From Giardia intestinalis (Eukaryota), in assembly GCA_000002435.2 (NCBI GenBank), contig CM018791.1: a DNA stretch of 64,000 nt. One strand, given 5' to 3'. The notes under the pieces are model-generated. The model made no database searches and was not told where the DNA came from. It saw only the letters and a program-made list of their open reading frames with translations. The translations under genes and the position numbers were made by a program. Each line of letters starts with the position of its first letter. Positions within the stretch are counted from its first letter, which is position 1. Positions 1,871-36,525 of the stretch are shown here, in pieces.

Positions 1871-4540
1871 CTACGAGACATCGCACAGACAGATGCTATT
1901 TTCCGCTATTGGCTCGGCGTATTCCATTACCTCAGACTCTATATATACCGCAAATGGTATTTTCAGGGAGCCTTCATCGATGGGTAAATCGTAGTCTGCG
2001 CCATTAGGTTCTACATCATAGCTTAAGTCCTTAATATAGTACGGAGGCATTGGTAGTGGTTGTTGACAAGTTGATGATAAGTTGTCCAGGGGAGCGGGGG
2101 CAGCAAGGGGCTCCTCCGCGCTCTCCTCGCACTCCGGGGTGGCGGCCCTCTGGTAGCTCTCGTCCTTCGCCGGGTCCAGGGGAGCGGGGGCAGCAAGGGG
2201 CTCCTCCGCGCTCTCCTCGCACTCCGGGGTGGCGGCCCTCTGGTAGCTCTCGTCCTTCGCCGGGTCCAGGGGAGCGGGGGCAGCAAGGGGCTCCTCCGCG
2301 CTCTCCTCGCACTCCGGGGTGGCGGCCCTCTGGTAGCTCTCGTCCTTCGCCGGGTCCAGGGGAGCGGGGGCAGCAAGGGGCTCCTCCGCGCTCTCCTCGC
2401 ACTCCGGGGTGGCGGCCCTCTGGTAGCTCTCGTCCTTCGCCGGGTCCAGGGGAGCGGGGGCAGCAAGGGGCTCCTCCGCGCTCTCCTCGCACTCCGGGGT
2501 GGCGGCCCTCTGGTAGCTATCTTCGCAGTATTTTGCAGCTAAGACAGAAGGCTCATCTCTGACCTGTTCAACTGTAGTAACAGTTTCTATAACCTCATAG
2601 CGGTTATAAATGTATTTATCATCAGTCTTTTCAGAAGGTGTTCCAGCCTGTCCTTCTGCTTCATACAAATCTCCCTCAGTAATAGGCGTTGGTTCCACCT
2701 TTGATGTAGCAGGCATGTGGTATGTGGTGTTTAATACTTGTCCATTCTCATCATAAATGGCTTTATCGCTAGCATTACTGTTCATCAATTCTGCTTCTTC
2801 TTCTCTTGAAATAATCTTTTTAAGAGGCATCGGCAAACTGCTTTCCCTGGTGGTCACTGGCTCTTCCTCACGCGCGAATAGAACAGGCTTTGTATTCGGT
2901 CGAGTATTAGTGGAATATCCAACTATACTCTTAGAAACATAGTTGGGTTCAATAATCGGATGTATGCTCTTGTCTGAATCTCCACAATAAAATTCTGGCA
3001 AGGGCTGGCAATAGGATTTGAAGCATGTCATAGAGCGTTTTTGGGTCATGCTGTCCCGATCATCTACCTGGTACGCTTCCCAGTCATCAGATGTAGGATA
3101 GACAGGCACTATCACCAAAGTTTTTCGTTGCTCGTTGACAAACTTTAAAATAGTGCCAAAGTCCAAAAGAGTGTCTTGCTCTGCTGTTATGGCATCCAAC
3201 AGCTGCTGAGGAGTCAGAAGAGGGACGGGAAGATCAGTAATATTAGTGTAACAGCCCTTTAGAGCATGAAGATGGGCATCCCAGCAGATTGGCAAATCAT
3301 CTCCAGCAAACACGGCATCAGCTTGTAACCCCAAAAGAAAGTAAAGGGATACGTCCTCATCGGACAAAGAGGACGTACGTGCTACACTGCTACATACCAG
3401 GTCACTGTCTAGAGGGCCTTGATCAACTCCATTCCGTGGGTGCTTCTGGTCGTACAGATCAAACAAGTCGCCAGTCTCATCACAGTTTATACATTGATCA
3501 TAGAAGATGTTAACAACTTCTTGTATCTCCGGAAGAGTCATCTCAGGCATAAACTTGAGAATCGCAAACACAAGTGCCGTTGTTTCCCGTGTATAGAAGC
3601 ACTCTTGTTTTAGATACATAAACCACGAATCCTCTGCCTTGTCTGATATTTTGATATTCGGGAGGCAGACAGGCTTGTCACAAAGAAACCTGCACGCGTT
3701 GGCAAGAGATGATAACTGAATGGTCAGCACTTTAAACTTAGTAAGAAGCTCAGTCAAGGCCTTTCTGCTGCCTTTCCCCGAACTCAGAAGAGCAGCCGTC
3801 TCATTCTTACAGATAATCCGCTCTTGAAGTAGCGTCCTAAAGAGTTTGCGGTATTCTAAAAGCGTATGCATCCTCTTTTGATACTCAACCGTGAGCGTAG
3901 AGCTTCTGTTGAGCTGAGAATACGCATAATCACGCTCTGAATAGGGGATTTCAAGAGCCTCCCACATACGAGTGAGTGATGCAACAGCATTGTGCGCCCT
4001 CAGAGCCATGGATGCCCCTTGGCCCGTCCTTGGCAAGAATTGGTTCCCACTTCGGGAGACAAGAGAGGTAGAGCCCCGATCCTTTGTCATGAACTTCTCT
4101 GACTTGTTGAGATTGTCTGTATCGTTATAGTATCGTGTCTGTGGGGAACAAATGCGTTCCAAATAAGGAGAATATTCCACCTGCTGCTCGGTAACAGACG
4201 CTTTTGGACTCCCGTGGCCATGCTTTGTAGATTTACGATAAGATTTGATGTCTGTATTTGGAGACTTTTGTAGTGGGCGGGTAATGGAGCGTGAGCGGAC
4301 ATTTGCCATGGTTGCCCCTTCTAGGTGCTTGCTCTGAATGCGGAGCATCTCTGCTTGCGACACACCTCGCTCCGTAGTCTTGGCCATCTCGACAATCCGG
4401 GCATTGTTCGGATTTGAAAAGAATGCCTTGAGGTGGGGGTCGCTTTCTGCATGGTATGACGGTGGTCTGTCACCAATTCTAGTGGTAAACTCTGGCTGCA
4501 ATCTTTCGCGTCGCGGTGCGCGGTGGTCAACAAAGCTCAT
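1871..4540 (-). CDS. Member A of a window-local paralogous family (uncharacterised conserved ~350-aa core), with five C-terminal 30-aa acidic/Pro-rich repeats.
   Basis: 889-aa ORF with a true ATG at 4540. Shared motifs with 26227-27714, 31739-34621 and 34606-36525: WEALEIPYSERDYAY, SSGKGSRKALTELLTKFKVLTIQLSSLANACRFLCDKPV, FLLGLQADAVFAGDDLPICWDAHLH, LPVPLLTPQQLLDAI, LVIVPVYP. Confidence 0.65.
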   Translation of the reverse strand: MSFVDHRAPRRERLQPEFTTRIGDRPPSYHAESDPHLKAFFSNPNNARIVEMAKTTERGVSQAEMLRIQSKHLEGATMANVRSRSITRPLQKSPNTDIKSYRKSTKHGHGSPKASVTEQQVEYSPYLERICSPQTRYYNDTDNLNKSEKFMTKDRGSTSLVSRSGNQFLPRTGQGASMALRAHNAVASLTRMWEALEIPYSERDYAYSQLNRSSTLTVEYQKRMHTLLEYRKLFRTLLQERIICKNETAALLSSGKGSRKALTELLTKFKVLTIQLSSLANACRFLCDKPVCLPNIKISDKAEDSWFMYLKQECFYTRETTALVFAILKFMPEMTLPEIQEVVNIFYDQCINCDETGDLFDLYDQKHPRNGVDQGPLDSDLVCSSVARTSSLSDEDVSLYFLLGLQADAVFAGDDLPICWDAHLHALKGCYTNITDLPVPLLTPQQLLDAITAEQDTLLDFGTILKFVNEQRKTLVIVPVYPTSDDWEAYQVDDRDSMTQKRSMTCFKSYCQPLPEFYCGDSDKSIHPIIEPNYVSKSIVGYSTNTRPNTKPVLFAREEEPVTTRESSLPMPLKKIISREEEAELMNSNASDKAIYDENGQVLNTTYHMPATSKVEPTPITEGDLYEAEGQAGTPSEKTDDKYIYNRYEVIETVTTVEQVRDEPSVLAAKYCEDSYQRAATPECEESAEEPLAAPAPLDPAKDESYQRAATPECEESAEEPLAAPAPLDPAKDESYQRAATPECEESAEEPLAAPAPLDPAKDESYQRAATPECEESAEEPLAAPAPLDPAKDESYQRAATPECEESAEEPLAAPAPLDNLSSTCQQPLPMPPYYIKDLSYDVEPNGADYDLPIDEGSLKIPFAVYIESEVMEYAEPIAENSICLCDVS
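2086..2517. repeat. Perfect tandem repeat, 90 bp x about 4.8 copies, in-frame inside CDS 1871..4540. It encodes ESYQRAATPECEESAEEPLAAPAPLDPAKD x5.
   Basis: CCAGG unit starts at 2086, 2176, 2266, 2356 and 2446. The copies are identical at the nucleotide level and diverge only at 2518. Confidence 0.95.
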
Positions 4541-26226: not shown

Positions 26227-27714
26227 TTAATTTGTGCTTGAGTCTAGGGTAAGAGTTGTTTCTCGCTCTGTCATTTCCAGAGCCGTTACTAGCGTTGTAA
26301 GGGTTGACTGATCAGCAAATGTTTGCCCCATATGGTCAGCTGCTTCATTTTCTTCTTTATCTTTATCCATACTTACATCTTTTGATTCTCTTATGGAGCA
26401 CGGGGGGACCGCAAGTCTTGCAGTCGGCTCTAGACCTGTTGCACTTAAGGAGATTATGCGTGGGGCACTCACTTTAGCCTGGCGTGCAGTAGCTTCAGCT
26501 AGCAGGATATTATCGTCTTCAATGTTAGTAGATTTATCGACATAAATCTCGATATTTGAGTCGTTAGGAATGACCGGAACAAGTACCACATTGCATCCTG
26601 AAAGCCGAATATCAGACAGAACGCTACTGAACTCTATGAGTGTCTGTTCTTCACTCTTTACGGCATCTAAGATCTGTTCTGGTGACAGCAGTGTATATGG
26701 TAAGGAGCGGTTTCCGTAGAACTCTCCTTGTTTTGTGTGCAAGAACATGTCCCAGTTGACTGCAAGACAGTCGTGCTCAAATAGTGTTTCGGCCTGTAGG
26801 CCTAAGAGGAAATTTAAAGCAGCCTCGCCGAATTCTTCGCTACTGTAGTTTGATAACTGGATGTTTTGGCTAACATCTTCAACGCTTTCAACAATCTGAT
26901 TGTCGTCTTTAATCACAAATTGGTCGTCAGAATCTTTGTGTATTGTTTCATGGAAGTACTCTTTAACCAACTGAATATGCTCCTTATATGTGTACCCGGG
27001 CTTAAAGCAAAAGATAGTGAACAAGAGTGCAGTGTTCTCGACACTGTAAAGTCCTTCTAGTCTAAGGTAAAGCAGCCAATTGTACTTAGGAGACCTAGAC
27101 GAAATTCCAAAGGGCTGCAGATTGACAGGCTTCTTGCAAATAAGTCTTGCTAAATTAACTAGAGTGCTGATGAAAATGGTAAGCCGTTTGAGCTTCGTCA
27201 GGGAGCATATGAGAACAGACTTGGATCCCTTACCAGCAGCCATTATCTGCCTGACTAATTGTACAGTCTTCTGTCTGTCTTGAGATAATTCAACATAGGC
27301 ACGCTGGAGCTCAACAAGAGTCTTTAGCTTCGCCGTGTACACTTCTAAATACTCCGAATGAGACGAAAGAATAATGCTTGCATAGTTTCGTTCCAGTGGC
27401 GGTATATCTAAGGCTTTCCAAAGAGGTATGAGCGACCCAAATGGCTTACGTAGCCAAGCTGAAGACTCGGATGGTGACTTCAGTGGGCGCCTTTCACGAT
27501 GAGCTAGGTTTATAGACGAGTATATCTGCCTGTCTACCAGTCTATTAGCTTTGAGGGAGCCTGTGTGTAGTGATACGTTATCGGGAGAAAGCAATCGCGT
27601 CTCTCTTCTACTTCTGCCTCTTCCAAGCACTCTTTCTAGACTGCTGTTTTTTCCTGGAGAGGAAGAAATCCGATATATGTCCTGGTACGAACACCCGGTG
27701 GTGTGGGAAGACAT
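26227..27714 (-). CDS. Member B of the paralogous family (core domain only, no repeats).
   Basis: Motifs WKALDIPPLERNYASIIL, AAGKGSKSVLICSLTKLKRLTIFISTLVNLARLICKKPV, FLLGLQAETLFEHDCLAVNWDMFLH, LPYTLLSPEQILDAV, VVLVPVIP. The track start 27783 is a TTG; the ATG is at 27714 after an AT-rich leader. Confidence 0.6.
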   Translation of the reverse strand: MSSHTTGCSYQDIYRISSSPGKNSSLERVLGRGRSRRETRLLSPDNVSLHTGSLKANRLVDRQIYSSINLAHRERRPLKSPSESSAWLRKPFGSLIPLWKALDIPPLERNYASIILSSHSEYLEVYTAKLKTLVELQRAYVELSQDRQKTVQLVRQIMAAGKGSKSVLICSLTKLKRLTIFISTLVNLARLICKKPVNLQPFGISSRSPKYNWLLYLRLEGLYSVENTALLFTIFCFKPGYTYKEHIQLVKEYFHETIHKDSDDQFVIKDDNQIVESVEDVSQNIQLSNYSSEEFGEAALNFLLGLQAETLFEHDCLAVNWDMFLHTKQGEFYGNRSLPYTLLSPEQILDAVKSEEQTLIEFSSVLSDIRLSGCNVVLVPVIPNDSNIEIYVDKSTNIEDDNILLAEATARQAKVSAPRIISLSATGLEPTARLAVPPCSIRESKDVSMDKDKEENEAADHMGQTFADQSTLTTLVTALEMTERETTLTLDSSTN

Positions 27715-27911
27715 TAAAAAGTTTTTGAGGACAGGTTTTAAAGGATAGTTTGGGCAGTTATAGCTGGAGCTGATGCGTGGCAACCTACCCTTGTCAACCC
27801 TTTCATTACTAAAATGTGTTTGCCATTCTCCATATTATCAATTTTAAAGTATTGATACAATGCGCAGATAAGACCCAAATTCACTTCTGAGTATAGAGGG
27901 GGGTTACGTTG

Positions 27912-30900
27912 TTATCTTCGCTGTTTTCTGCCAGTCACTGGGAGATCCGTTGCTTCGCTTTGCGGCTGCGGATTAGCTGCTTCAGCACACTCTATTTCAC
28001 CGTCCTCATTATAAAACGAGGTTTTCTTGGTATCGCTTTGATAGACACTCTGCTTCTTAACTTGGCGCGGTCCTGTTCTGCGTTGATTGATGGACACAGT
28101 TATAGTGTCGCTTTCAGAAGGAATACAAGCGATGTTTTGGAGCACAGACGATGCTATGCGATTTGTACCTGAATTACTGTTGTCCTTATGGGACGATTCT
28201 TTAGTTCCTACGTGAAGTACTTGTGGGTCATTGCTGCTATTGTAGTGGGGATCAAGTGAGATCTGCTTGTCCCTGCGGACTACTGAAGACGCCAACTGAT
28301 CATTCCATTGACGACTATTAGATCCAACGGATGCACTCCCAGCTGGTCGATCTTTGGAAACCGACGGCTCTTGCCTGGAAGCCACTTTGGCTGCAGAGGC
28401 ATGAATAGCCGACTGTTCACCAGATCGGGCGCTGAAAACATCATCAGGGGCTGTGTGAACACTAATCTGTTCTGGGTCGCGGAATCGCGAGGGGTGATCA
28501 CTTGTAGGTTGATGTGCTTCGCTGAACAATCCCATATCCAGTTTAGATTCGGCTTCCGTTGGAGCAGACGTCCTGTGAGTCGAATAATCTGTGTGATACG
28601 ACGATATTGGACCGATCGTAAGATCTTGTGGCAAAGGATCATTGAGGGCTATTCGATGATTAATTTGTGGAGCAATCGATTCATGTGTAGTCGATGATTC
28701 AATGGAGGGTGTTCTAATAGGTCTATAGGACGTTTCAGAGGCAGGTTCAGAGGATGGCTTCTCTCTTTCCAAGCTTTTGACGCGCGGAGGCAATCGGGCG
28801 TGCTGAACCTTAGCAGGGGAATGATGCTCCTGAGTAGCCACAGCAGTCTTATGCTGTTCAGAGTTTTTGGTCCATGACATGTTTAACTCCTGAACCTGTA
28901 CATCTATCTCTTCCAATTGTAGGCTTCGCTTAGACGAACTACTAGGCTCCTTAGAGAAGTGCTTAATAAGGGAAGCCGGCTCCATTGAGATTGATGGAGA
29001 CCTGGTTTGATGTTGCTGGCTTGGCAATACTGTTGATGAACTAGATAATGCCGTTGAATGTTCTGTCGCCTGTGTGGACGAGTTCAGCTCTACCACAGGG
29101 ATGGAACCTCGTGCAACTGTTGCACTTTGAACGGTAGTGGCAGTGCATGCAAAAAAGTCTTGAGCAACATAAGGGTCAGAGGGATCCATCTTAGATCCCT
29201 CAGTAGGCAGATAAGAACTTGTATCATGAGATACATCATCTGGAGCAGGAGTCTTCTCTAAAGATGCCGCAGGGTTTGCAATACGTTTGGGAGAACAGAG
29301 AGTTCGGGAAGGCATAGTCTCAACGGGTGGGAGGGTAGTTAGAGAAGAAAGAGCTGGCTCAGTGAAGGTAGGCAGGGGAAGCTCTATAGTTGATACAACA
29401 ACTGGGCTGTTAGGAATCAAAATTGTATCAATATTTGTGGTCGTTTCATATAATGCAGCCGAGAACGAATCCTGCCGCTCATGTTTAGAAACATCAATAC
29501 TTCCAGGAATTATTTGAACGATAGATTGCTCTGCAAGGAAGTTGGAAATAAGATCGTCCTTGTGTTGTGGCTGAATGTTAGCAGGAAGGCTGGCATGGTT
29601 TAGTATTAAAGCTGGCTGTTCAAGGCTTGTAGTTATTGATAGATTATTAGTGGAATAGAGCTCGTCGATAATGGATGTTTCCAGTGGCGCTGTAGCCATG
29701 GCCTGCGAGTCCTGATCAGCATACATCTCTTCGATGATAGACTTTGTCACAGATGCGGAACGCAATGGTAGTGTAGGTGCACTGCTATGCATTTGCTGCA
29801 CATAATTGGACAGGCGCGGCCCTTCGGTAAATTGTGCCGGTATTGGGGCTTCCAAGTCTTCTAGTTGCAGACGAGATTCTTCTGCAAGCAGAGAGGAGCG
29901 TTGTGTTGGAAGTGTAGAGGTTGCCACCTCAGCCGTAGCGTTAGGAATTTGCAATGAACTTGAAGCCTGCGAGGAGGCGTGAAATTCGGCGAGGGAACGC
30001 GGAAATCCTTCTAGTTCGCTAGATGCATCCCTTGCATGTGACACCCGCACAGAGGGCAGCGCTTTCACAATTGATTTTTCAAGGGTAGTCGGAATTGTGC
30101 TTATATGGTGGACAAGTCCAGTAACGTCTTCTCCGATGACATCTACGGGAGTGAAGGCACGAGACAAGAGATACTCATTACTGTGTTGCGGAATAGTTGA
30201 ATGAGATCTGGAGATAGAAACGGCCGGAAGGGCTTTAGAGCTAATGGGGCCATCAGCCATGCTCATCTCTTCCAAGATAGAAAGATTGTTTTCGCGTACC
30301 TGACTATAGTTTGAAAATTGAGGTGGCGGGAGGTCTGGGAATACCAAATTGGTGCTGGCACCTGGAACTGTTCCCAGAATAGACGCATTAGCAGCAAACG
30401 GAACTGTTTCAATAAATGTATGTGCTGCTGTACAGTCAGTCATTATGTAAGGAGTGGATGGAGCTGAGCGCCTAGAAATAGACGGCTCCTTGGACCACAC
30501 GGTGGGCTTTGGTTTGCGGATTACAGTTGCTCGATACTCCTTTGTGGGAGGAATCGAAGGACTGGTGACCTGCTTGACCTCATTTGTAACAGAAATAATC
30601 GGCGGTGTCTGTTTGATTAATTCGTTAGCAGAGGTAGACACATGTGGAGCAGGTTGGTGAGGAGCCAGTTCCTTGAGAGTCTGTTCTGGTCGAGGTTGTT
30701 CGCAAGAAGGAGTTCTAGACCTCTTAGAAGAGTGCATAACTAAAGAGTCCGATGGGCTATGGGTTTCCTCATAGGTCTCCTCCGGCTGCTCCGCCAGTAA
30801 GTCGCACGTTTCAAATTCGTCTAGCTGACCTTCGCAACCAGGCTCATCCGGAAAATCTAACGGTTTATGTGCCCGTTTAATCGTGGATCGCGACAGGGTA

Positions 30901-31493
30901 ATAACGTGAGCTGGACTGGCGGGCTGAGGACAGAAACCTTTCGAGGAATCGCTAGATAGTAAACCCGGCTCTCTGGCAGTAGCGAATGTCATAGTGACCT
31001 CTGGAACCATAGTGCTCTGAGCTGAATTTGGTCTGGAGAGCTGAGTAGTAGAAGATACTGCTGGTGTTTCAGAGATGTCCATCAAGCTGCTGAGTACTGT
31101 TGTATGGTCCTGGAGTGGTTTATCAAACGACTTGCTTTCTAAATTAATAGTATTAATAGTTGATGGGTCAGCAAGAAAGTTTCGATGATGTGGATTTTCA
31201 ACCACGTGAGAATCAGCTGCAAATGTCAAAATCATCTGAGTTACAGTTACATCTTCGTCTAGTGTACTTTCAGTAGAGCTTCTTGATTGGACAGAAGAGC
31301 TTTCCTTAGAACCTAAAGTAGTAGAGGATAGAACTTGAGGATGCTCACCAGCGTTTTCCTGGGCAATTGATGAATACTGATCTTGAGAATTTTGTTTAGG
31401 CACTTCATTGGAAGAATGCTTGATTAAAAATGAAGACTCGTGAGTTAAGGGCCTAGATAACGAATTTTCTTCTGCCTTATTTTGTGAATGCAT
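27912..31493 (-). CDS. Giant Ser/Thr/Pro-rich low-complexity ORF (1,224 aa in the track; about 1,193 aa from the first ATG at 31493). Possibly the frameshifted C-terminal continuation of gene 31739..34621 (see findings).
   Basis: Uninterrupted 3.6-kb ORF. The track start 31586 is a TTG. The same frame stays open with no start codon from the repeat array (about 31836) down to 31586. Confidence 0.5.
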   Translation of the reverse strand: MHSQNKAEENSLSRPLTHESSFLIKHSSNEVPKQNSQDQYSSIAQENAGEHPQVLSSTTLGSKESSSVQSRSSTESTLDEDVTVTQMILTFAADSHVVENPHHRNFLADPSTINTINLESKSFDKPLQDHTTVLSSLMDISETPAVSSTTQLSRPNSAQSTMVPEVTMTFATAREPGLLSSDSSKGFCPQPASPAHVITLSRSTIKRAHKPLDFPDEPGCEGQLDEFETCDLLAEQPEETYEETHSPSDSLVMHSSKRSRTPSCEQPRPEQTLKELAPHQPAPHVSTSANELIKQTPPIISVTNEVKQVTSPSIPPTKEYRATVIRKPKPTVWSKEPSISRRSAPSTPYIMTDCTAAHTFIETVPFAANASILGTVPGASTNLVFPDLPPPQFSNYSQVRENNLSILEEMSMADGPISSKALPAVSISRSHSTIPQHSNEYLLSRAFTPVDVIGEDVTGLVHHISTIPTTLEKSIVKALPSVRVSHARDASSELEGFPRSLAEFHASSQASSSLQIPNATAEVATSTLPTQRSSLLAEESRLQLEDLEAPIPAQFTEGPRLSNYVQQMHSSAPTLPLRSASVTKSIIEEMYADQDSQAMATAPLETSIIDELYSTNNLSITTSLEQPALILNHASLPANIQPQHKDDLISNFLAEQSIVQIIPGSIDVSKHERQDSFSAALYETTTNIDTILIPNSPVVVSTIELPLPTFTEPALSSLTTLPPVETMPSRTLCSPKRIANPAASLEKTPAPDDVSHDTSSYLPTEGSKMDPSDPYVAQDFFACTATTVQSATVARGSIPVVELNSSTQATEHSTALSSSSTVLPSQQHQTRSPSISMEPASLIKHFSKEPSSSSKRSLQLEEIDVQVQELNMSWTKNSEQHKTAVATQEHHSPAKVQHARLPPRVKSLEREKPSSEPASETSYRPIRTPSIESSTTHESIAPQINHRIALNDPLPQDLTIGPISSYHTDYSTHRTSAPTEAESKLDMGLFSEAHQPTSDHPSRFRDPEQISVHTAPDDVFSARSGEQSAIHASAAKVASRQEPSVSKDRPAGSASVGSNSRQWNDQLASSVVRRDKQISLDPHYNSSNDPQVLHVGTKESSHKDNSNSGTNRIASSVLQNIACIPSESDTITVSINQRRTGPRQVKKQSVYQSDTKKTSFYNEDGEIECAEAANPQPQSEATDLPVTGRKQRR

Positions 31494-31738
31494 AAAGTTC
31501 TCAATCAAAATATCGTAAGAAGTATCTCCATTACCATAAACATCTGTATTTAGCAAAGTATCCTCACACACCGTGTCTTCTGCCAAGGGCTTCTTTTGGT
31601 TTGTTCTCGATGCATCGGTAGGTTTTAATTTCCGTAAAGGTGGAAGGGATGATAAGGAATACGTTAGAACAAGCTCACTAACAGGTACATCTTCATTATC
31701 ACAAGCTGGAGTAAGTACTCCCTCATGTATATCGTTAA

Positions 31739-34621
31739 CTACAAGAAGGTCTTCGACGGGCTCCGCGGGCTCTGCAAGGCGTGCCTCCTCGGGCTCCTCA
31801 ACGGGCGCTTCAGGTTCTTCGACGGGCTCCGCGGGTCTGCAAGGCGTGCCTCCTCGGGCTCCTCAACGGGCGCTTCAGGTTCTTCGACGGGCTCCGCGGG
31901 GTCTGCAAGGCGTGCCTCCTCGGGCTCCTCAACGGGCGCTTCAGGTTCTTCGACGGGCTCCGCGGGCTCTGCAAGGCGTGCCTCCTCGGGCTCCTCAACG
32001 GGCGCTTCAGGTTCTTCGACGGGCTCCGCGGGGTCTGCAAGGCGTGCCTCCTCGGGCTCCTCAACGGGCGCTTCAGGTTCTTCGACGGGCGCCTCTTGCT
32101 GCTCGGGCTGTTTCTTTGCAGGAAGAGAAGAGTAACTCTTACTAGCAGTAAGCTGCTGTAAACCAACAGACTCAGGTTCCTTTCTACTTCGAGATTGTAA
32201 TAGCGGGGTCCCATCTGGTCGAGTAAAATCTGTTAGAGGAGTACTACATGGTTCGTCCAAGATGTCTTCGCGAATCCTAGATAAAAGGATGATATTATCA
32301 CAGACGTGCTCGTCGTCAACTTCATATACTTGAAAGTGTTTGGCTGTACTAGAATCCTCATAGTCTGTAGAGTCTAGACAGGCGTATCGCCCAGTACTAC
32401 TACTTCGTACTTGTGAAGTAGTGATCCTATCAAAATGACTAGAAGTGATCACCACACATGGAATGTATTCATCGTTGATATTAACTTGACTCTCAGGATG
32501 CTCGTTGTGTAGTAGATCAATTTCCCTTAGCAAGGATCCACCTGTCGAAAGAATATTTCTGGGTGAAGATATAGTTACAATAGTTGCGCTCATTACATCG
32601 TCTCGAGAGGCGATTTCCGTGGCAGTTGACGGCGGAAGCAACGTACACTCACTTATTTTGGGAATAAGGGCAGTAGCAGGAGAAATAATATTTAGATCTT
32701 TAGCATTGGTCGAGGAGCTTGGGGGCTGCGCAGTAAACTCAGCATATGGGTCCTCTGATGGTATGTCCAAACCTCCACTACTAGCTGCAAATGAAGGACC
32801 AACCACTTCTGGTTCAATAATATCTGGATCCTCATGATAACTTTGTTCATCATAGGTGCTTAAATTCTGAGTTGATGATATGGATGAGTGAGCTAGTGCT
32901 TGCATCTCTAGCGACTCCTCGTCCTTTGGAGGAGAAAGATTAACTATGGGAGCATCTTCGCGTAGATCATTGCCATCCATCTCAATAGTTGGTAGATCGG
33001 CTATCACTTCAGGTTGCGATGCAATCACAGCGGGAGATATTGACCCCGATGGCTCAAGCTGCACCTCGTGCTCATCAGGTTGTGGAAGTATAATATCCAG
33101 CGACGCCTTTAATGGTGGTAGAATAGTGGGCGCGCCTGATGAACCACTTAACGGTCTACTAGAGACATGAGTTGAAAGATGCTCATTAGATGCAAAATTC
33201 GCCTGTTCAGATTGACAAGCTTCGTTAGATACAGATGCATCTAAAGAAGAACGGTGGTCATCATCGGTAGAGCGTTCAATGTGAGCAATAGCAGAAGACT
33301 GTCTATGAGGAACAACACTTTCATCATCACCATCCGTTAGACGTCGTAGCAAGACTATTTTATTTGACCCTTCATCCTCCTGCGTAAAGATCCTGTCATA
33401 AACATCCAACGTATCCGAAGCTGAGAGCGGAGGAACAGCAACAATCCCACAATCACTTTTGTTTGCCTGCCTCATAAGATCGGTTAATTGGTTAATGGTT
33501 GTTCGCTCGACTGCAAATGCTGTGAACACTTCCTCTGGAGTCAGCTCCAGACAAGGAAGAGGAGCCTTGCCCATAGATGGCCCCCGCACCTGCTCTAAGT
33601 GTTCTACCCATCGCACCCCTAAATCATCTCCCTCAAAAGCAAACGTCATTGGAGGAGCAACCCCCAGTAGAAGAGCCAAGGATGCAAAATCATTGATAGG
33701 CGAGGCTGTGTCTACACCAGGGAGCATAACACATGCAGCTGGGGTATGAATGTTGTCATTTTGGTTTGAAAATTCTTCGTCTTTGACGCTATCCCACATA
33801 CCGTAGAAGGAAGATAACAGGGCTTTATGGTCAGATAAAGCTTGACTCTTGCTATACTTTAAAACAGTAAACATAACTGCAAAATCGACTTGATTGAAAC
33901 CTCTTTTCTTCATCCTCACGATGTAGTTTGGAGACTTCTGGGAAAATCCTGTTCTGAGAGGATTAAATGAAACTGGCTTTTCACAGATTACTCGTGATGC
34001 ATTGACGACAGAAACTATGGAAATTATAGATGACCGAAGAAGGAGGAGATCGTTTGCAAGGGACTTCCTGCTCCCCTTTCCTCCTTTCAAAGCGCTTTCA
34101 ATATTGCCAAAGGCGCTCTCATATTCCTGAATGCTTGTCAGGTATGCTTCTCTGAGATCTAAAAGAGCTTTTAACTTATTTATGTAGGTGGGGATCTCAG
34201 CCCTGTTTGCATCCAGTCGCTCATAAGCAAGATTGCGCTCTTCAATGCATACATCGAGGCTGTCCCACAGTGGTATAATATCTGTAAGAATATTCTTAGC
34301 CGTCTCAGTACGTCGCAACGGTGCTGGATTGTATGTGCGCGCAGTCTTGTAAGAAACGTCTTTTCTCGGCTTGTGCATTTGTTTTCTTGAGAGATCCGCG
34401 CTCATAAGCAAAGGATTTGCTTGCAAGTAGGGACTCTTGTAGGTGAACTTAGTGCCAGTCTGGGCAGACATGGCAGATGTATTAGTGACCAGACGCCCGC
34501 CAGAGGTAGGTCCACTATCACGACGAGACGTTCTCATTGCGTCAGTTTTTGGTGTGGATGATCGTAACACTGCCTGAGGTCTTGATCGGCCTCCAGTCCT
34601 CATAGATGAATCCGGAAACAT
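31739..34621 (-). CDS. Member C of the paralogous family, with C-terminal 22-aa acidic repeats (EPEAPVEEPEEARLADPAEPVE). The reading frame is disrupted inside the repeat array.
   Basis: Motifs WDSLDVCIEERNLAYERL, LKGGKGSRKSLANDLLLLRSSIISIVSVVNASRVICEKPV, LLLGVAPPMTFAFEGDDLGVRWVEHLE, VAVPPL. The track start 34702 is a GTG. Candidate ATGs are at 34621 and 34603. The tail ...ADPRSPSKNLKRPLRSPRRHALQSPRSPSKTFL* is the repeat read in the wrong frame after a 1-bp deletion. Confidence 0.6.
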   Translation of the reverse strand: MFPDSSMRTGGRSRPQAVLRSSTPKTDAMRTSRRDSGPTSGGRLVTNTSAMSAQTGTKFTYKSPYLQANPLLMSADLSRKQMHKPRKDVSYKTARTYNPAPLRRTETAKNILTDIIPLWDSLDVCIEERNLAYERLDANRAEIPTYINKLKALLDLREAYLTSIQEYESAFGNIESALKGGKGSRKSLANDLLLLRSSIISIVSVVNASRVICEKPVSFNPLRTGFSQKSPNYIVRMKKRGFNQVDFAVMFTVLKYSKSQALSDHKALLSSFYGMWDSVKDEEFSNQNDNIHTPAACVMLPGVDTASPINDFASLALLLGVAPPMTFAFEGDDLGVRWVEHLEQVRGPSMGKAPLPCLELTPEEVFTAFAVERTTINQLTDLMRQANKSDCGIVAVPPLSASDTLDVYDRIFTQEDEGSNKIVLLRRLTDGDDESVVPHRQSSAIAHIERSTDDDHRSSLDASVSNEACQSEQANFASNEHLSTHVSSRPLSGSSGAPTILPPLKASLDIILPQPDEHEVQLEPSGSISPAVIASQPEVIADLPTIEMDGNDLREDAPIVNLSPPKDEESLEMQALAHSSISSTQNLSTYDEQSYHEDPDIIEPEVVGPSFAASSGGLDIPSEDPYAEFTAQPPSSSTNAKDLNIISPATALIPKISECTLLPPSTATEIASRDDVMSATIVTISSPRNILSTGGSLLREIDLLHNEHPESQVNINDEYIPCVVITSSHFDRITTSQVRSSSTGRYACLDSTDYEDSSTAKHFQVYEVDDEHVCDNIILLSRIREDILDEPCSTPLTDFTRPDGTPLLQSRSRKEPESVGLQQLTASKSYSSLPAKKQPEQQEAPVEEPEAPVEEPEEARLADPAEPVEEPEAPVEEPEEARLAEPAEPVEEPEAPVEEPEEARLADPAEPVEEPEAPVEEPEEARLADPRSPSKNLKRPLRSPRRHALQSPRSPSKTFL
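31751..32079. repeat. Tandem repeat, 66 bp x 5 copies, inside CDS 31739..34621. Copy 2 (31817..31881) is 65 bp because it has GGGT instead of GGGGT/GGGCT.
   Basis: Unit CTTCGACGGGCTCCGCGGG[G/C]TCTGCAAGGCGTGCCTCCTCGGGCTCCTCAACGGGCGCTTCAGGTT. Copies at 31751, 31817, 31882, 31948 and 32014. Confidence 0.95.
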
Positions 34622-36525
34622 TTGGTCCGCGATTTTTAAAATCCGGTTATAAATACGCCGACTGTCTTGGGAGCTTAAAGGAGGTCCAAAGGCTGCGTTC
34701 ACTCACATCCGTCTCTCCTGCTTCAGGCTTGAGTTCACATTCTCTGCGACAAAACATGGCTACTCCTTCTCCTATTCGTAAGCATTCACAAAAGCAGGAA
34801 GAACGCCACGCCTTTTGGCGTTCACTTCTGCTAAAGTGTCCTGTGTTTGTTCCTGTTCAAGGGTCGACACACAAACTGCAAAAGATCACCGCTTACAGTA
34901 TCTCCAAGCATGTGAATCGTACACGAGCAAACAGTCAATTAAACCCAGTTAGAACCCCTCCCCTTTCCAGGTCATTAACCAAAGCTGTCCCTGGATCACT
35001 TCAAAATACCCGAACGCCGCGTGGCTCTGCTGTCAGCTCAACCATCCGGAACACACCTCCCATAAGAAAACCCGGCCTCACCACGTCTGTTCTTTCTAAT
35101 GACTCACTACTCTCACCATCCGGCACTACATCATTTGCAGTCTTCAAGCACCTCCCTAAGGGCTCTATAAATGGAAGTCTCTCTACGAGAAAGTCAACTG
35201 CAGAGCTGACTCTCTCAGAATGGACCCATCTCGAAGAAATGCAGACAGACTTAGGGCTTTGCGAGGCGGAAATTGCGTATTCAAAAGTTACGATCAAAAA
35301 CAACCCGGCATTGGGTAAAGCATACTTCCGTAGAACAAAAAACCTTACTGAGTACAATTCTGCGTATCGAATAGCATATAAGGAGCGTGCAATCGTCTTA
35401 GCTCGTGTCCAGAAAAATATAAAAGAGCTTCGTGGTTCACGCATCGCTCTGCTACGTTCTCTTGAGCGGCTTCGCGCTCTGACTATCTACATGTGCTCAT
35501 TGATTAATGCTGCTCGCTTGATCTGTGGGAAACCAGTAGTTCTGCCAGGGCTCAATTTATACAGTGAGCAAAACTGGCTCTATGACCTACGGCGTGAGCT
35601 CTTTATGAGCAGGAAAACCACCGCGATACTGCTTACGGTGTTCAAGCTCTTTGGTAGAAAAACATATGAGGATGTGCGCTCTGTTGTTGATGCGTATTTT
35701 ACATCGTGTATTACCGATTTTCCCCCTACTCTGTCACTGTCCGAGCAAGAGCTAAGCCGAACGCTTGGCATGCCACCTAATGAAGATGCTTCACTTAAGA
35801 GCACTATGTCAGCTTCTAGCGCCCCTGCGATCAACGGTAAGACAGCTAGTGATGATGGATCGTCGCAACCTACTCTTGAGGCAGCGTACATTCCCGACGA
35901 TAGCATGAATAACATGGGCTATTTCTCCAGAATGGACGGGCTATCTATGACCGATACCATCTATGATGAAGATGCAGATCTTGACAGAGTTACTGCGGGA
36001 GACGTGGCTCTCTACCTTTTGTTGGGTGTTAGCGCAGAAGAAATCTTCGACGGAGATGATTTGGCAGTGGCATGGAATACTCATATAGATAAAATCATAA
36101 ATACATATCAACGCCTATCAAATGTGGAATTAGAGGAGGTCCCGTCATTACAGGACCTGCCAATTGTAGACATTCCCTTGTTGACAGGGCTCCAAATTGT
36201 GGAGATGGCTCGAACAGAAACTTTTATTGTGTCTGATTACATAAACCTCCTCAAGGACTTCGATAACGTTGGCTTGGACGTTGTCAGAATACCAGTTGAT
36301 CCATCCGACCCCTTTGAGACGTATAGAGTTAACTTTGATCTATCTCTACTACGCGACAGTGCAGATCTAGCAGCATTTGAGTTAGATGGAAAATGTATTG
36401 GGTGCTCTTCTCTGTCCTCGAAAACTGCTCCTAGTTGCCCCGATGAAACAGCACATAGACCCAATAATTCTTCTCGCTCATCTGTATTTTCATTAACCAA
36501 GAGCATCTCAGTGGAGGAGAATTGA
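34606..36525 (+). CDS. Member D of the paralogous family. It is divergently oriented and its 5' end abuts or overlaps member C.
   Basis: Motifs KELRGSRIALLRSLERLRALTIYMCSLINAARLICGKPVVLPG, EQNWLYDLRRELFMSRKTTAILLTVFKLF, YLLLGVSAEEIFDGDDLAVAWNTHID, VVRIPVDP. ATG at 34606; an alternative ATG is at 34756 (MATPSPIRK). Confidence 0.6.
   Translation: MNPETFGPRFLKSGYKYADCLGSLKEVQRLRSLTSVSPASGLSSHSLRQNMATPSPIRKHSQKQEERHAFWRSLLLKCPVFVPVQGSTHKLQKITAYSISKHVNRTRANSQLNPVRTPPLSRSLTKAVPGSLQNTRTPRGSAVSSTIRNTPPIRKPGLTTSVLSNDSLLSPSGTTSFAVFKHLPKGSINGSLSTRKSTAELTLSEWTHLEEMQTDLGLCEAEIAYSKVTIKNNPALGKAYFRRTKNLTEYNSAYRIAYKERAIVLARVQKNIKELRGSRIALLRSLERLRALTIYMCSLINAARLICGKPVVLPGLNLYSEQNWLYDLRRELFMSRKTTAILLTVFKLFGRKTYEDVRSVVDAYFTSCITDFPPTLSLSEQELSRTLGMPPNEDASLKSTMSASSAPAINGKTASDDGSSQPTLEAAYIPDDSMNNMGYFSRMDGLSMTDTIYDEDADLDRVTAGDVALYLLLGVSAEEIFDGDDLAVAWNTHIDKIINTYQRLSNVELEEVPSLQDLPIVDIPLLTGLQIVEMARTETFIVSDYINLLKDFDNVGLDVVRIPVDPSDPFETYRVNFDLSLLRDSADLAAFELDGKCIGCSSLSSKTAPSCPDETAHRPNNSSRSSVFSLTKSISVEEN

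What the first reader, a model, noticed from the sequence alone, without database searches (positions are those of the whole stretch)
27912..34621. A 1-bp indel in a 66-bp repeat array splits what reads as one ~2,260-aa gene into two ORFs.
Seen directly: copies 1, 3, 4 and 5 of the 66-bp unit (31751-32079) are 66 bp long. Copy 2 (31817-31881) is 65 bp because a G/C is missing from the run CCGCGGG[G/C]TCTG.

Upstream of that point the minus-strand ORF encodes acidic repeats EAPVEEPEEARLADPAEPVE. Downstream it slips into the basic frame (RSPSKNLKRPLRSPRRHALQ) and stops at 31739.

Hand translation of the frame that would be restored by adding one base gives ...ARLAEPAEPVEDLLVVNDIHEGVLTPACDNEDVPVSELVLTYSLSSLPPLRKLKPTDASRTNQKKPL-AEDTVCEDTLLNTDVYG.... 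This runs with no stop and no start codon straight into ORF 27912..31586, whose track 'M' is a TTG. The first ATG there is 31 codons further in.

About 97 stop-free codons upstream of the first ATG have a chance probability of roughly 0.01. The family-C protein and the S/T/P-rich 1,224-aa ORF are therefore probably a single gene, interrupted by a genuine frameshift, by a homopolymer sequencing or assembly error, or by strain-variable repeat slippage.
Basis: seen in the sequence. Interest (0 to 1): 0.78.

Follow-up and report, generated by a model that had tools for sequence, protein, structure and literature searches.

The report
One Giardia gene split by one base
Two neighbouring 'mucin-like protein' genes in the Giardia WB reference genome are the two halves of one ~2,240-residue gene, separated by one missing C in a 66-bp coding repeat; this corrects a gene model and is not new biology.

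Summary
On the minus strand, 32083-31755 holds five copies of a 66-bp unit. Copy 4 (31885-31821) is 65 bp because GACCCCGCGG reads GACCCGCGG. Adding one C gives a single 2,236-aa ORF.

The window is Giardia intestinalis WB-C6. The two ORFs are annotated separately as 'Mucin-like protein': KAE8302723.1 (932 aa) and XP_001704184.1 (1,193 aa).

Orthologues settle the ancestry. Assemblage E isolate P15 and an A2-like metagenome contig each carry one uninterrupted ORF (2,207 and 2,178 aa) in the same gene neighbourhood. The 86-codon segment between the WB ORFs is conserved as protein (dN/dS 0.37). Every other indel across 6.6 kb is a multiple of three.

Whether the missing base is in WB's DNA or only in the assembly could not be decided. 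I lean to a real WB frameshift (about 0.5), because the 2007 gene model already started at the same ATG. A PacBio consensus error is about 0.4, because the site sits where 75-bp polishing reads probably cannot be placed (my inference). The 454 assembly of isolate DH shows a +1 C at the same site.

Three RNA-seq contigs start exactly at the downstream ATG (31493), so the C-terminal half may have its own mRNA.

This is ordinary and useful for curation.

The parts
27912..34621 (-). Whole ancestral gene. It gives 2,236 aa once one C is restored. It has an N-terminal family domain and about 1,800 aa of S/P/T/E-rich sequence.
   Evidence: Repaired translation has no internal stop. It is colinear with the single ORFs of P15 (L001 10001-16624) and the A2-like contig (L005 10001-16537).
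31739..34621 (-). Upstream ORF as it stands: 960 aa from the first ATG. WB annotates it from ATG 34537 as KAE8302723.1 / XP_037901788.1 (932 aa), 'Mucin-like protein'.
33398..34300 (-). Conserved N-terminal domain of about 300 aa, belonging to a family found so far only in Giardia and in unnamed contigs. Motifs include LW..L.IP..ER.YAY, GKGSR, LVNAAR..C.KPV, SLYFLLG and PLLTP.
   Evidence: HMMER hits P0010-P0024, E-values down to 7e-27. Alignment. tblastn against the window. No Pfam, PDB or fold match.
31755..32083 (-). Coding minisatellite: five copies of a 66-bp unit, encoding 22 aa (EEPEAPVEEPEEARLA[D/E]PAEPV).
31821..31885 (-). The 65-bp unit, fourth on the minus strand.
31833..31835 (-). 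C-run of three where the other units have GAC-CCC or GAG-CCC. This is the site of the missing base and the only frame-breaking difference from the orthologues.
31739..31741 (-). Premature TAG that ends the shifted reading frame after 30 out-of-frame residues.
31494..31754 (-). Junction segment, unannotated in WB. In the restored frame it encodes DLLVVNDIHEGVL...DILIENF, which is conserved in P15, the A2-like contig and DH.
   Evidence: Alignment and dN/dS of 0.37 against P15. DH protein P0003.
27912..31493 (-). Downstream ORF from its first ATG: XP_001704184.1 / KAE8302722.1 / A8BYJ8, 1,193 aa, 'Mucin-like protein'.
   Evidence: Exact-sequence look-up.
31493..31493 (-). Shared first base of three RNA-seq-derived Logan contigs (SRR2642195, SRR2642197, SRR2642199). 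Candidate internal mRNA 5' end.
27880..27885 (-). AGTGAA, the only AGTRAA polyadenylation-type signal on the minus strand between 27800 and 34700. It lies 27 nt after the true stop.
34632..34642 (-). AT-rich initiator-like element ATTTTAAAAAT, 11-21 nt upstream of ATG 34621.

Best explanation
The locus 27912-34621 (minus strand) is one ancestral Giardia gene.

What the gene encodes. It has a roughly 300-aa conserved helical N-terminal domain, shared with at least three paralogues in this window, followed by about 1,800 aa of S/P/T/E-rich sequence. That tail contains an acidic 22-aa (66-bp) minisatellite. The protein has no signal peptide, so 'mucin-like' describes its composition only.

What broke it. 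In isolate WB-C6 one C is missing from the C4 run of repeat unit 4, giving a -1 frameshift.

Shown: the sequence as it stands yields two ORFs.
1. An N-terminal product of 932-960 aa that ends in 30 out-of-frame basic residues.
2. An intact 1,193-codon ORF.

My commitment (inferred). The deletion is real in the WB-C6 lineage and recent, and is not an assembly error. The 2007 Sanger-era gene model already began at the same internal ATG, and the independent 2020 PacBio assembly has the same break.

Also inferred. The C-terminal half can still be made from its own mRNA, whose 5' end lies at or next to ATG 31493. Giardia mRNAs have very short leaders.

Confidence by step: one ancestral gene, about 0.97; the deletion is real, about 0.5; a separate C-terminal mRNA, about 0.5.
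For: One gene:
- P15 has a single 2,207-aa ORF with 82% identity over 100% of the repaired protein.
- The A2-like ENA contig has a single 2,178-aa ORF.
- Flanking genes are the same in all three.
- The junction is conserved as protein, with dN/dS 0.37 against 0.09-0.27 in flanking coding parts.
- Every WB-versus-A2 and WB-versus-P15 indel is a multiple of 3 except the one over the 65-bp unit.
- The downstream frame is open for 123 codons upstream of its first ATG.
- The locus has one initiator-like element at its 5' end and one AGTRAA signal, which follows the final stop. None follows the premature stop.

Deletion real:
- The downstream protein carries 2007-era accessions with an unchanged sequence (XP_001704184.1, A8BYJ8). 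I infer from this that the 11x Sanger assembly was also interrupted upstream of that ATG.
- The 2020 assembly was made independently by PacBio.

Separate mRNA:
- Three RNA-seq contigs from WB-1B trophozoites start exactly at 31493. They have no mismatches and end at three different 3' positions.
- Another contig shows that the tool does return upstream flank when it exists.
- 5' UTRs in Giardia are 1-14 nt (PMC3610916).
Against: Against a real deletion:
- No independent read across the repeat could be obtained.
- The authors of the 2020 assembly report genes truncated by PacBio homopolymer frameshifts. They corrected only the indels supported by at least 50% of at least 10 mapped 75-bp Illumina reads. 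By my inference, reads that short cannot be placed uniquely inside five near-identical 66-bp units.
- The 454 assembly of isolate DH has a +1 C at exactly the same site, which suggests the site is prone to consensus errors.
- The 2007 state of the repeat is inferred, not seen. The upstream protein has only 2020-era accessions, and no guessed 2007 version is in the collection.
- The downstream ORF shows no decay.

Against a separate mRNA:
- The strand of the Logan contigs is unknown.
- They run on into neighbouring genes.
- A break in the assembly graph, or an antisense poly(A) site, could also give a sharp end.
Confidence: 0.5

Rival explanations
1. Assembly artefact. WB-C6 really has five 66-bp units and one intact 2,236-aa gene. 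The missing C is a residual consensus error of the PacBio RS II (HGAP/Quiver) assembly, lying where short-read polishing could not reach. The two-gene annotation is then simply wrong.
For: - The assembly paper states that PacBio homopolymer errors truncated full-length genes, and that 85 indels were fixed with 75-bp paired reads.
- By my inference, a 75-bp read from a true GACCCC unit matches units 1 or 3 perfectly and still forms a proper pair, so it would never vote at unit 4.
- The indel lies in the longest homopolymer of the unit, next to the only position that differs between units.
- The DH 454 assembly has the opposite error (+1 C) at the same site.
- 454 assemblies of Giardia carry dozens of such errors: 48 of 61 frameshifted genes in P15.
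- The Illumina-based contig L005 is in frame.
- The downstream 1,193 codons are fully intact.
Against: The 2007 Sanger-era annotation already called the downstream ORF from ATG 31493. That requires a second, independent break or gap in the same gene in that assembly. A 330-bp array should be spanned by Sanger reads (established knowledge). A C4 run is short for a PacBio consensus error at 200x coverage.
Confidence: 0.4
2. Hypermutable switch. This is a special case of the real-frameshift reading. The C-run in the minisatellite would be a genuine hot spot that gains and loses a base in assemblage A isolates (WB -1, DH +1). Slippage would toggle between the full-length protein and an N-terminal fragment plus a separately transcribed C-terminal protein.
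For: Indels of opposite sign sit at the same site in two isolates. Repeat number and unit type differ among WB, DH, the A2-like contig and P15. There is a candidate internal 5' end at the first ATG after the break.
Against: Both frameshifted assemblies come from technologies prone to homopolymer errors. A run of 3-4 C is far shorter than known contingency tracts (established knowledge). No population data are available.
Confidence: 0.1
3. The two ORFs were separate genes ancestrally and fused in the P15 and A2 lineages.
For: Other members of the family are 455-1,294 aa long, about the size of the upstream ORF alone.
Against: Assemblage E is the outgroup to A1 plus A2 (established knowledge), and both E and A2 have the single ORF. 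The WB break is one base inside an otherwise perfect 66-bp unit. The WB upstream ORF ends in out-of-frame repeat sequence with no poly(A) signal after it.
Confidence: 0.02
4. Programmed recoding, by ribosomal -1 frameshifting or transcriptional slippage, restores the frame in vivo.
For: None beyond the intact downstream frame.
Against: In the zero frame the site reads GCA GAC CCG CGG AGC. That is not an X XXY YYZ slippery heptamer, and it contains no long homopolymer. The orthologues need no recoding.
Confidence: 0.01

Closest known systems
Giardia lamblia P15 'Mucin-like protein' (P0001, 2,207 aa; contig ACVC01000093.1)
   Same: It is the orthologue. It shows 82% protein identity over the whole repaired WB sequence. 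It has the same flanking genes, the same N-terminal domain, an acidic repeat block in the same place, and the same junction and C-terminus.
   Different: It is a single uninterrupted ORF. Its repeat units are of a different type (EEQPAEQPEAPIEEPV) and lack the CCCCGCGG context.
Homopolymer frameshift errors in long-read and 454 Giardia assemblies (Xu et al. 2020, PMC7000408; Jerlstrom-Hultqvist et al. 2010, PMC3091692)
   Same: A single-base length change in a homopolymer truncates a gene that is full-length in relatives.
   Different: Here the older Sanger-era gene model appears to share the break. The site also lies inside a tandem repeat, where the published correction step probably could not act (my inference).
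Lineage-specific pseudogenes or truncated genes caused by a frameshift
   Same: One frame-breaking indel against intact orthologues.
   Different: The downstream half shows no decay and may be transcribed on its own. The locus may therefore be a split gene and not a dead one.
Simple-sequence contingency loci (phase variation by slipped-strand mispairing)
   Same: An indel in a nucleotide run inside a coding repeat switches the reading frame. A second isolate shows the opposite indel at the same site.
   Different: The run is only 3-4 nt long. No within-population variation has been shown, and both cases may be sequencing artefacts.
Giardia paralogues GL50803_0016230, GL50803_0061043 and GL50803_0016504, and G. 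muris GMRT_13072, GMRT_10388 and GMRT_12751
   Same: They share the roughly 300-aa N-terminal domain followed by a low-complexity tail.
   Different: They are 455-973 aa long. The gene studied here is by far the longest and is the only one seen with the 66-bp acidic array.

Membership tests
Split or frameshifted version of a single gene | A colinear orthologue with one uninterrupted ORF covering both parts | tested here: met
   P0001 (P15) and P0009 (A2-like contig) cover both parts, with the same neighbouring genes.
Split or frameshifted version of a single gene | The segment between the ORFs is conserved as protein in the restored frame | tested here: met
   86 codons have dN/dS 0.37 against P15 and align without gaps.
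Split or frameshifted version of a single gene | A single indel whose length is not a multiple of three accounts for the split | tested here: met
   It is the only indel not divisible by 3 across 6.6 kb, against both A2 and P15. Adding one C gives one ORF.
Real mutation, as opposed to an assembly error | Independent reads from the same isolate show the 65-bp unit | not testable with these tools
   Logan contigs (k=31) stop at the array. Two metagenome scans were empty. Exact look-ups of possible 2007 proteins were negative.
Mucin (secreted or surface O-glycosylated protein) | N-terminal signal peptide or membrane anchor | tested here: not met
   The N-terminus MFPDSSMRTGGRSRPQAV... is hydrophilic. 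The most hydrophobic 19-residue window (Kyte-Doolittle 1.69) lies inside the conserved helical domain.
Mucin (secreted or surface O-glycosylated protein) | Pro/Thr/Ser-rich tandem repeats | tested here: inconclusive
   The tail has 14-16% S, 9% P and 8% T. The only tandem repeat is acidic, rich in E, P and A.
   phmmer E-values of 7e-27 to 1e-9 to Giardia and G. muris proteins. There are 24 invariant columns in 9 sequences. Four copies lie in the window.
PRC1/Ase1/MAP65 (a lead from memory, prompted by the LWD.L....ER motif) | A match to Pfam MAP65_ASE1 or to a solved PRC1 structure | tested here: not met
   No Pfam hit at E<=1. No relevant PDB sequence hit. No Foldseek hit, although the model is weak (pLDDT 54).
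Programmed -1 ribosomal frameshift | A slippery X XXY YYZ heptamer at the shift site | tested here: not met
   The site reads GCA GAC CCG CGG AGC.
Phase-variable contingency locus | Length variation of the tract within or between populations of one lineage | tested here: inconclusive
   WB shows -1 and DH shows +1 at the same site. Both come from platforms prone to homopolymer errors.

The most novel reading that the evidence does not exclude
The C-run next to the only variable position of the 66-bp unit may be a genuine slippage hot spot. Assemblage A isolates would then repeatedly switch this gene between two states. One state makes a 2,236-aa protein. The other makes a truncated N-terminal protein plus a C-terminal protein translated from an internal, nearly leaderless mRNA that starts at 31493. 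That would be a phase-variation-like switch in a eukaryotic parasite, outside the VSP system.
Probability: 0.08. Interest if true: 0.55.

Novelty: new member of a known kind. Interest (0 to 1): 0.25.

Why it matters
WB-C6 is the reference strain for Giardia research. Here two annotated 'Mucin-like protein' genes and an unannotated 260-nt gap are really one gene.

- If the missing base is an assembly error, the reference and GiardiaDB models should be merged. Knock-down, tagging and proteomics work on either half would otherwise be misdesigned.
- If the missing base is real, WB lacks the full-length protein that P15 and A2 isolates make. It may express the disordered C-terminal half alone, which would be a strain difference worth knowing about.

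The case also shows a blind spot of short-read polishing inside coding minisatellites. It defines a small, uncharacterised Giardia protein family clustered in this region.

Tried and rejected
Independent reads across the repeat:
- Exact-product look-ups of the upstream ORF from three start codons found nothing on record.
- The 1,224-aa ORF from the TTG start was not on record either. The first-residue L/M convention may explain this.
- Contigs carrying the neighbouring 495-aa gene reach at most 1.3 kb upstream, too short to help.
- A DNA pattern scan and a protein-guided scan of JGI metagenomes were both empty.

The 2007 protein model:
- Guessed versions with different start codons and collapsed repeat arrays are not in the collection.

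Homologue searches:
- The word-index search found only P15 and one Logan fragment, and found nothing with the junction as query.
- The internal-ATG product of P15 could not be looked up.

Function of the N-terminal domain:
- No Pfam hit and no PDB sequence hit.
- The AlphaFold model is poor, with pLDDT 54, and Foldseek against the PDB gave nothing below E=1.
- The afdb50 library was unavailable.
- The PRC1/Ase1 idea was dropped.

Literature:
- No paper or held supplement mentions this gene.

Readings rejected:
- An intron between the ORFs. There is no AG before 31493 and no Giardia intron consensus.
- Programmed frameshifting. There is no slippery site.
- Ancestrally separate genes, on phylogenetic parsimony.
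Full report
**Observation.** Tandem Repeats Finder reports a 66-bp period with 5.2 copies and 98% matches at 31750-32090. Read on the minus strand, the five units are 32083-32018, 32017-31952, 31951-31886, 31885-31821 and 31820-31755. All are 66 bp except the fourth, which is 65 bp. The units are identical except at one position, where they read GAC-CCC (Asp-Pro) or GAG-CCC (Glu-Pro). The short unit reads GACCCGCGG, with its C-run at 31833-31835.

The upstream ORF (31739-34702 from a GTG; first ATG at 34621) reads the acidic repeats. After the short unit it reads 30 basic out-of-frame residues and stops at the TAG at 31741-31739. The downstream ORF (27912-31586) starts at a TTG, and its first ATG is at 31493. 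Inserting one C produces a single stop-free reading frame of 2,236 aa from ATG 34621.

The downstream frame is open for 123 codons upstream of its first ATG. The chance probability is about 0.002.

**Source and annotation.** An exact-sequence look-up identifies the downstream ORF, read from ATG 31493, as 'Mucin-like protein' of Giardia intestinalis WB clone C6 (XP_001704184.1, KAE8302722.1, UniProt A8BYJ8; 1,193 aa). The upstream ORF, read from ATG 34537, is KAE8302723.1 / XP_037901788.1 (932 aa), also named 'Mucin-like protein'. Both lie on a 1.97-Mb chromosome. The reference therefore annotates two genes and leaves 31494-31738 unannotated.

**One gene.**
- A search with the repaired protein returned a 2,207-aa 'Mucin-like protein' of isolate P15 (assemblage E). 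It is 82% identical over 100% of the query. It is encoded as one ORF on contig ACVC01000093.1 (L001), between the same neighbours as in the window.
- The 90% cluster of the WB protein also holds a 2,178-aa single ORF from an Illumina metagenome contig (ERZ27317378, L005). That contig is 98.8% identical to WB in DNA and has the same synteny.
- For those 86 codons, WB against P15 gives dS 0.34 and dN/dS 0.37. The flanking coding parts give 0.09-0.27.
- In whole-gene DNA alignments every indel is a multiple of three except the one that overlaps the 65-bp unit: 101 nt against A2 and 29 nt against P15.
- The locus has an AT-rich initiator-like element 11-21 nt upstream of ATG 34621. It has a single AGTRAA-type signal, 27 nt after the final stop, and none after the premature stop.
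- Assemblage E is the outgroup of A1 plus A2 (established knowledge). The single ORF is therefore ancestral and the WB split is derived. I put this at about 0.97.

**What the protein is.**
- Pfam finds nothing in the full-length orthologues.
- An exhaustive HMMER search with residues 1-480 found 15 relatives, with E-values down to 7e-27, all matching residues ~100-417.
- Those that carry names are hypothetical proteins of Giardia: GL50803_0061043, GL50803_0016230 and GL50803_0016504, plus G. muris GMRT_13072, GMRT_10388 and GMRT_12751. The rest are unnamed Logan or JGI contigs.
- Four copies of the domain lie in this window: 1874-4540 (-), 26230-27714 (-), 33398-34300 (-, this gene) and 35104-36333 (+). 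The gene therefore sits between two paralogues.
- The domain has 24 invariant positions in nine sequences. It has no PDB sequence relative.
- The AlphaFold model is weak, with pLDDT 54. Only the first ~105 residues, a helical hairpin, reach 70-86. Foldseek against the PDB gave nothing below E=1.
- The rest of the protein has 14-16% Ser, 9% Pro and 8% Thr. There is no signal peptide or convincing membrane segment. 'Mucin-like' therefore describes composition only, and the domain's function remains unknown.

**Real or artefact: evidence for an artefact.**
- The 2020 WB assembly was built from PacBio RS II reads with HGAP and Quiver. Its authors saw full-length genes truncated by PacBio homopolymer frameshifts. 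They corrected 85 indels using 75-bp paired Illumina reads, and only where at least 50% of at least 10 mapped reads supported the change.
- By my inference, a 75-bp read from a true GACCCC unit would align perfectly to units 1 or 3, only 66 or 198 bp away, and would still form a proper pair. An error inside the array would then escape correction.
- The 454 assembly of isolate DH (A2; contig AHGT01000123.1, L006) starts inside the array. In its last unit it reads GAGCCCCGCGG, one C too many, at exactly the same site.
- 454 assemblies of Giardia are known to carry dozens of such errors. In P15, 48 of 61 frameshifted genes were attributed to them.
- Both anomalies sit at the only position that differs between units. 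A consensus drawn from mixed GAC-CCC and GAG-CCC reads could produce either one (inference).

**Real or artefact: evidence for a real deletion.**
- The downstream protein carries 2007-era accessions with an unchanged sequence. I infer that the 11x Sanger assembly was already interrupted upstream of ATG 31493. An intact frame would have been called as a 2,236-aa ORF.
- Sanger reads should span a 330-bp array.
- Two independent assemblies sharing the break is most simply explained by a real deletion.

**Real or artefact: what remains unknown.** I could not see the 2007 sequence. The upstream protein has only 2020-era accessions. The paper reports 626 adjusted start codons and 6 genes changed by frameshifts. 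None of my guessed 2007 versions exists in the collection. I settle on about 0.5 for a real deletion, which includes about 0.1 for a recurrent hot spot, and about 0.4 for an artefact.

**Expression.**
- The only contigs on record that encode the exact 1,193-aa product are three Logan assemblies of runs SRR2642195, SRR2642197 and SRR2642199. These are RNA-seq libraries of WB-1B trophozoites from Ansell et al. 2015 (PMC5224939).
- All three begin at window position 31493, the A of the ATG. They have no mismatches and end at 27473, 27202 and at or beyond 24912.
- Another RNA-derived contig (L007) shows 13 nt of flank before its called gene. The look-up tool therefore does not clip flanks.
- No 20-mer around 31493 recurs elsewhere in the window.
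- Giardia 5' UTRs are 1-14 nt (PMC3610916).
- The simplest reading is an mRNA 5' end at or next to this ATG. In that case the C-terminal half can be translated on its own whether or not the frameshift is real.
- The ATG and the sequence before it are conserved as coding sequence in P15 and A2. Such a start would therefore predate the split.
- The caveats are that the strand is unknown, the contigs run into neighbouring genes, and a graph break or an antisense poly(A) site could give the same edge.

**Comparison and novelty.** The closest known things are:
- the P15 orthologue;
- the documented class of homopolymer frameshift errors in Giardia assemblies;
- ordinary lineage-specific frameshift truncations.

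A contingency-locus reading is not excluded, but it rests on two assemblies from error-prone platforms. I found no paper that discusses this gene.

**Verdict.** The finding is ordinary: a gene model that should be merged or flagged, with a cheap and decisive test available by counting k-mers in existing Illumina reads.

Noticed in passing
window 1874-4540 (-), 26230-27714 (-), 33398-34300 (-), 35104-36333 (+): The window holds four paralogues of an uncharacterised ~300-aa domain, found so far only in Giardia and in unnamed contigs. They include GL50803_0016230 and GL50803_0061043. The split gene lies between two of them, one tandem and one divergent. G. muris has at least three members. No Pfam, PDB or fold match was found.
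   Followed up: partly
window 31493 (L002, L003, L004): Three RNA-seq-derived Logan contigs (SRR2642199, SRR2642197, SRR2642195) all begin at the A of the first ATG of the downstream ORF, and they end at different 3' positions. This is a candidate internal transcription start with essentially no leader.
   Followed up: partly
L006 about 190-200 (DH contig AHGT01000123.1): The 454 assembly of isolate DH begins inside the repeat array and reads GCAGAGCCCCGCGG in its last unit. That is +1 C at the very site where WB shows -1. As a result, its annotated partial protein ESU34880.1 starts in the basic frame (RSPSKNPKRPL...).
   Followed up: partly
window about 32934-32937 (L008 about 5230): A Logan contig from SRR17450159 has one extra T in a T-run (CTTT to CTTTT) inside the upstream ORF. 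In that data set the called product is truncated (P0005, 584 aa). The nature of the run is unknown.
   Followed up: no
window 34537-34621 (-) and 34606 (+): The longest minus-strand ORF (ATG 34621, preceded by ATTTTAAAAAT) and the divergent 639-aa plus-strand ORF (ATG 34606) overlap by 16 nt at their 5' ends. WB annotates the minus-strand gene from 34537. P15 uses the equivalent of 34621, and the gene call on the ENA contig uses the equivalent of 34603. At least one of these start codons is probably wrong.
   Followed up: partly
window 26227-27783 (-): The neighbouring paralogue is 495 aa in WB (a new gene in the 2020 annotation), 518 aa in DH, and 455 aa (TTG start) in most automatic calls on Logan and ENA contigs. 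Its start codon is unsettled.
   Followed up: no
window 31790-32095: The 66-bp unit has an internal 33-bp sub-period (9.3 copies, 62% matches). The 22-aa repeat therefore looks like an old duplication of an 11-aa acidic motif.
   Followed up: no
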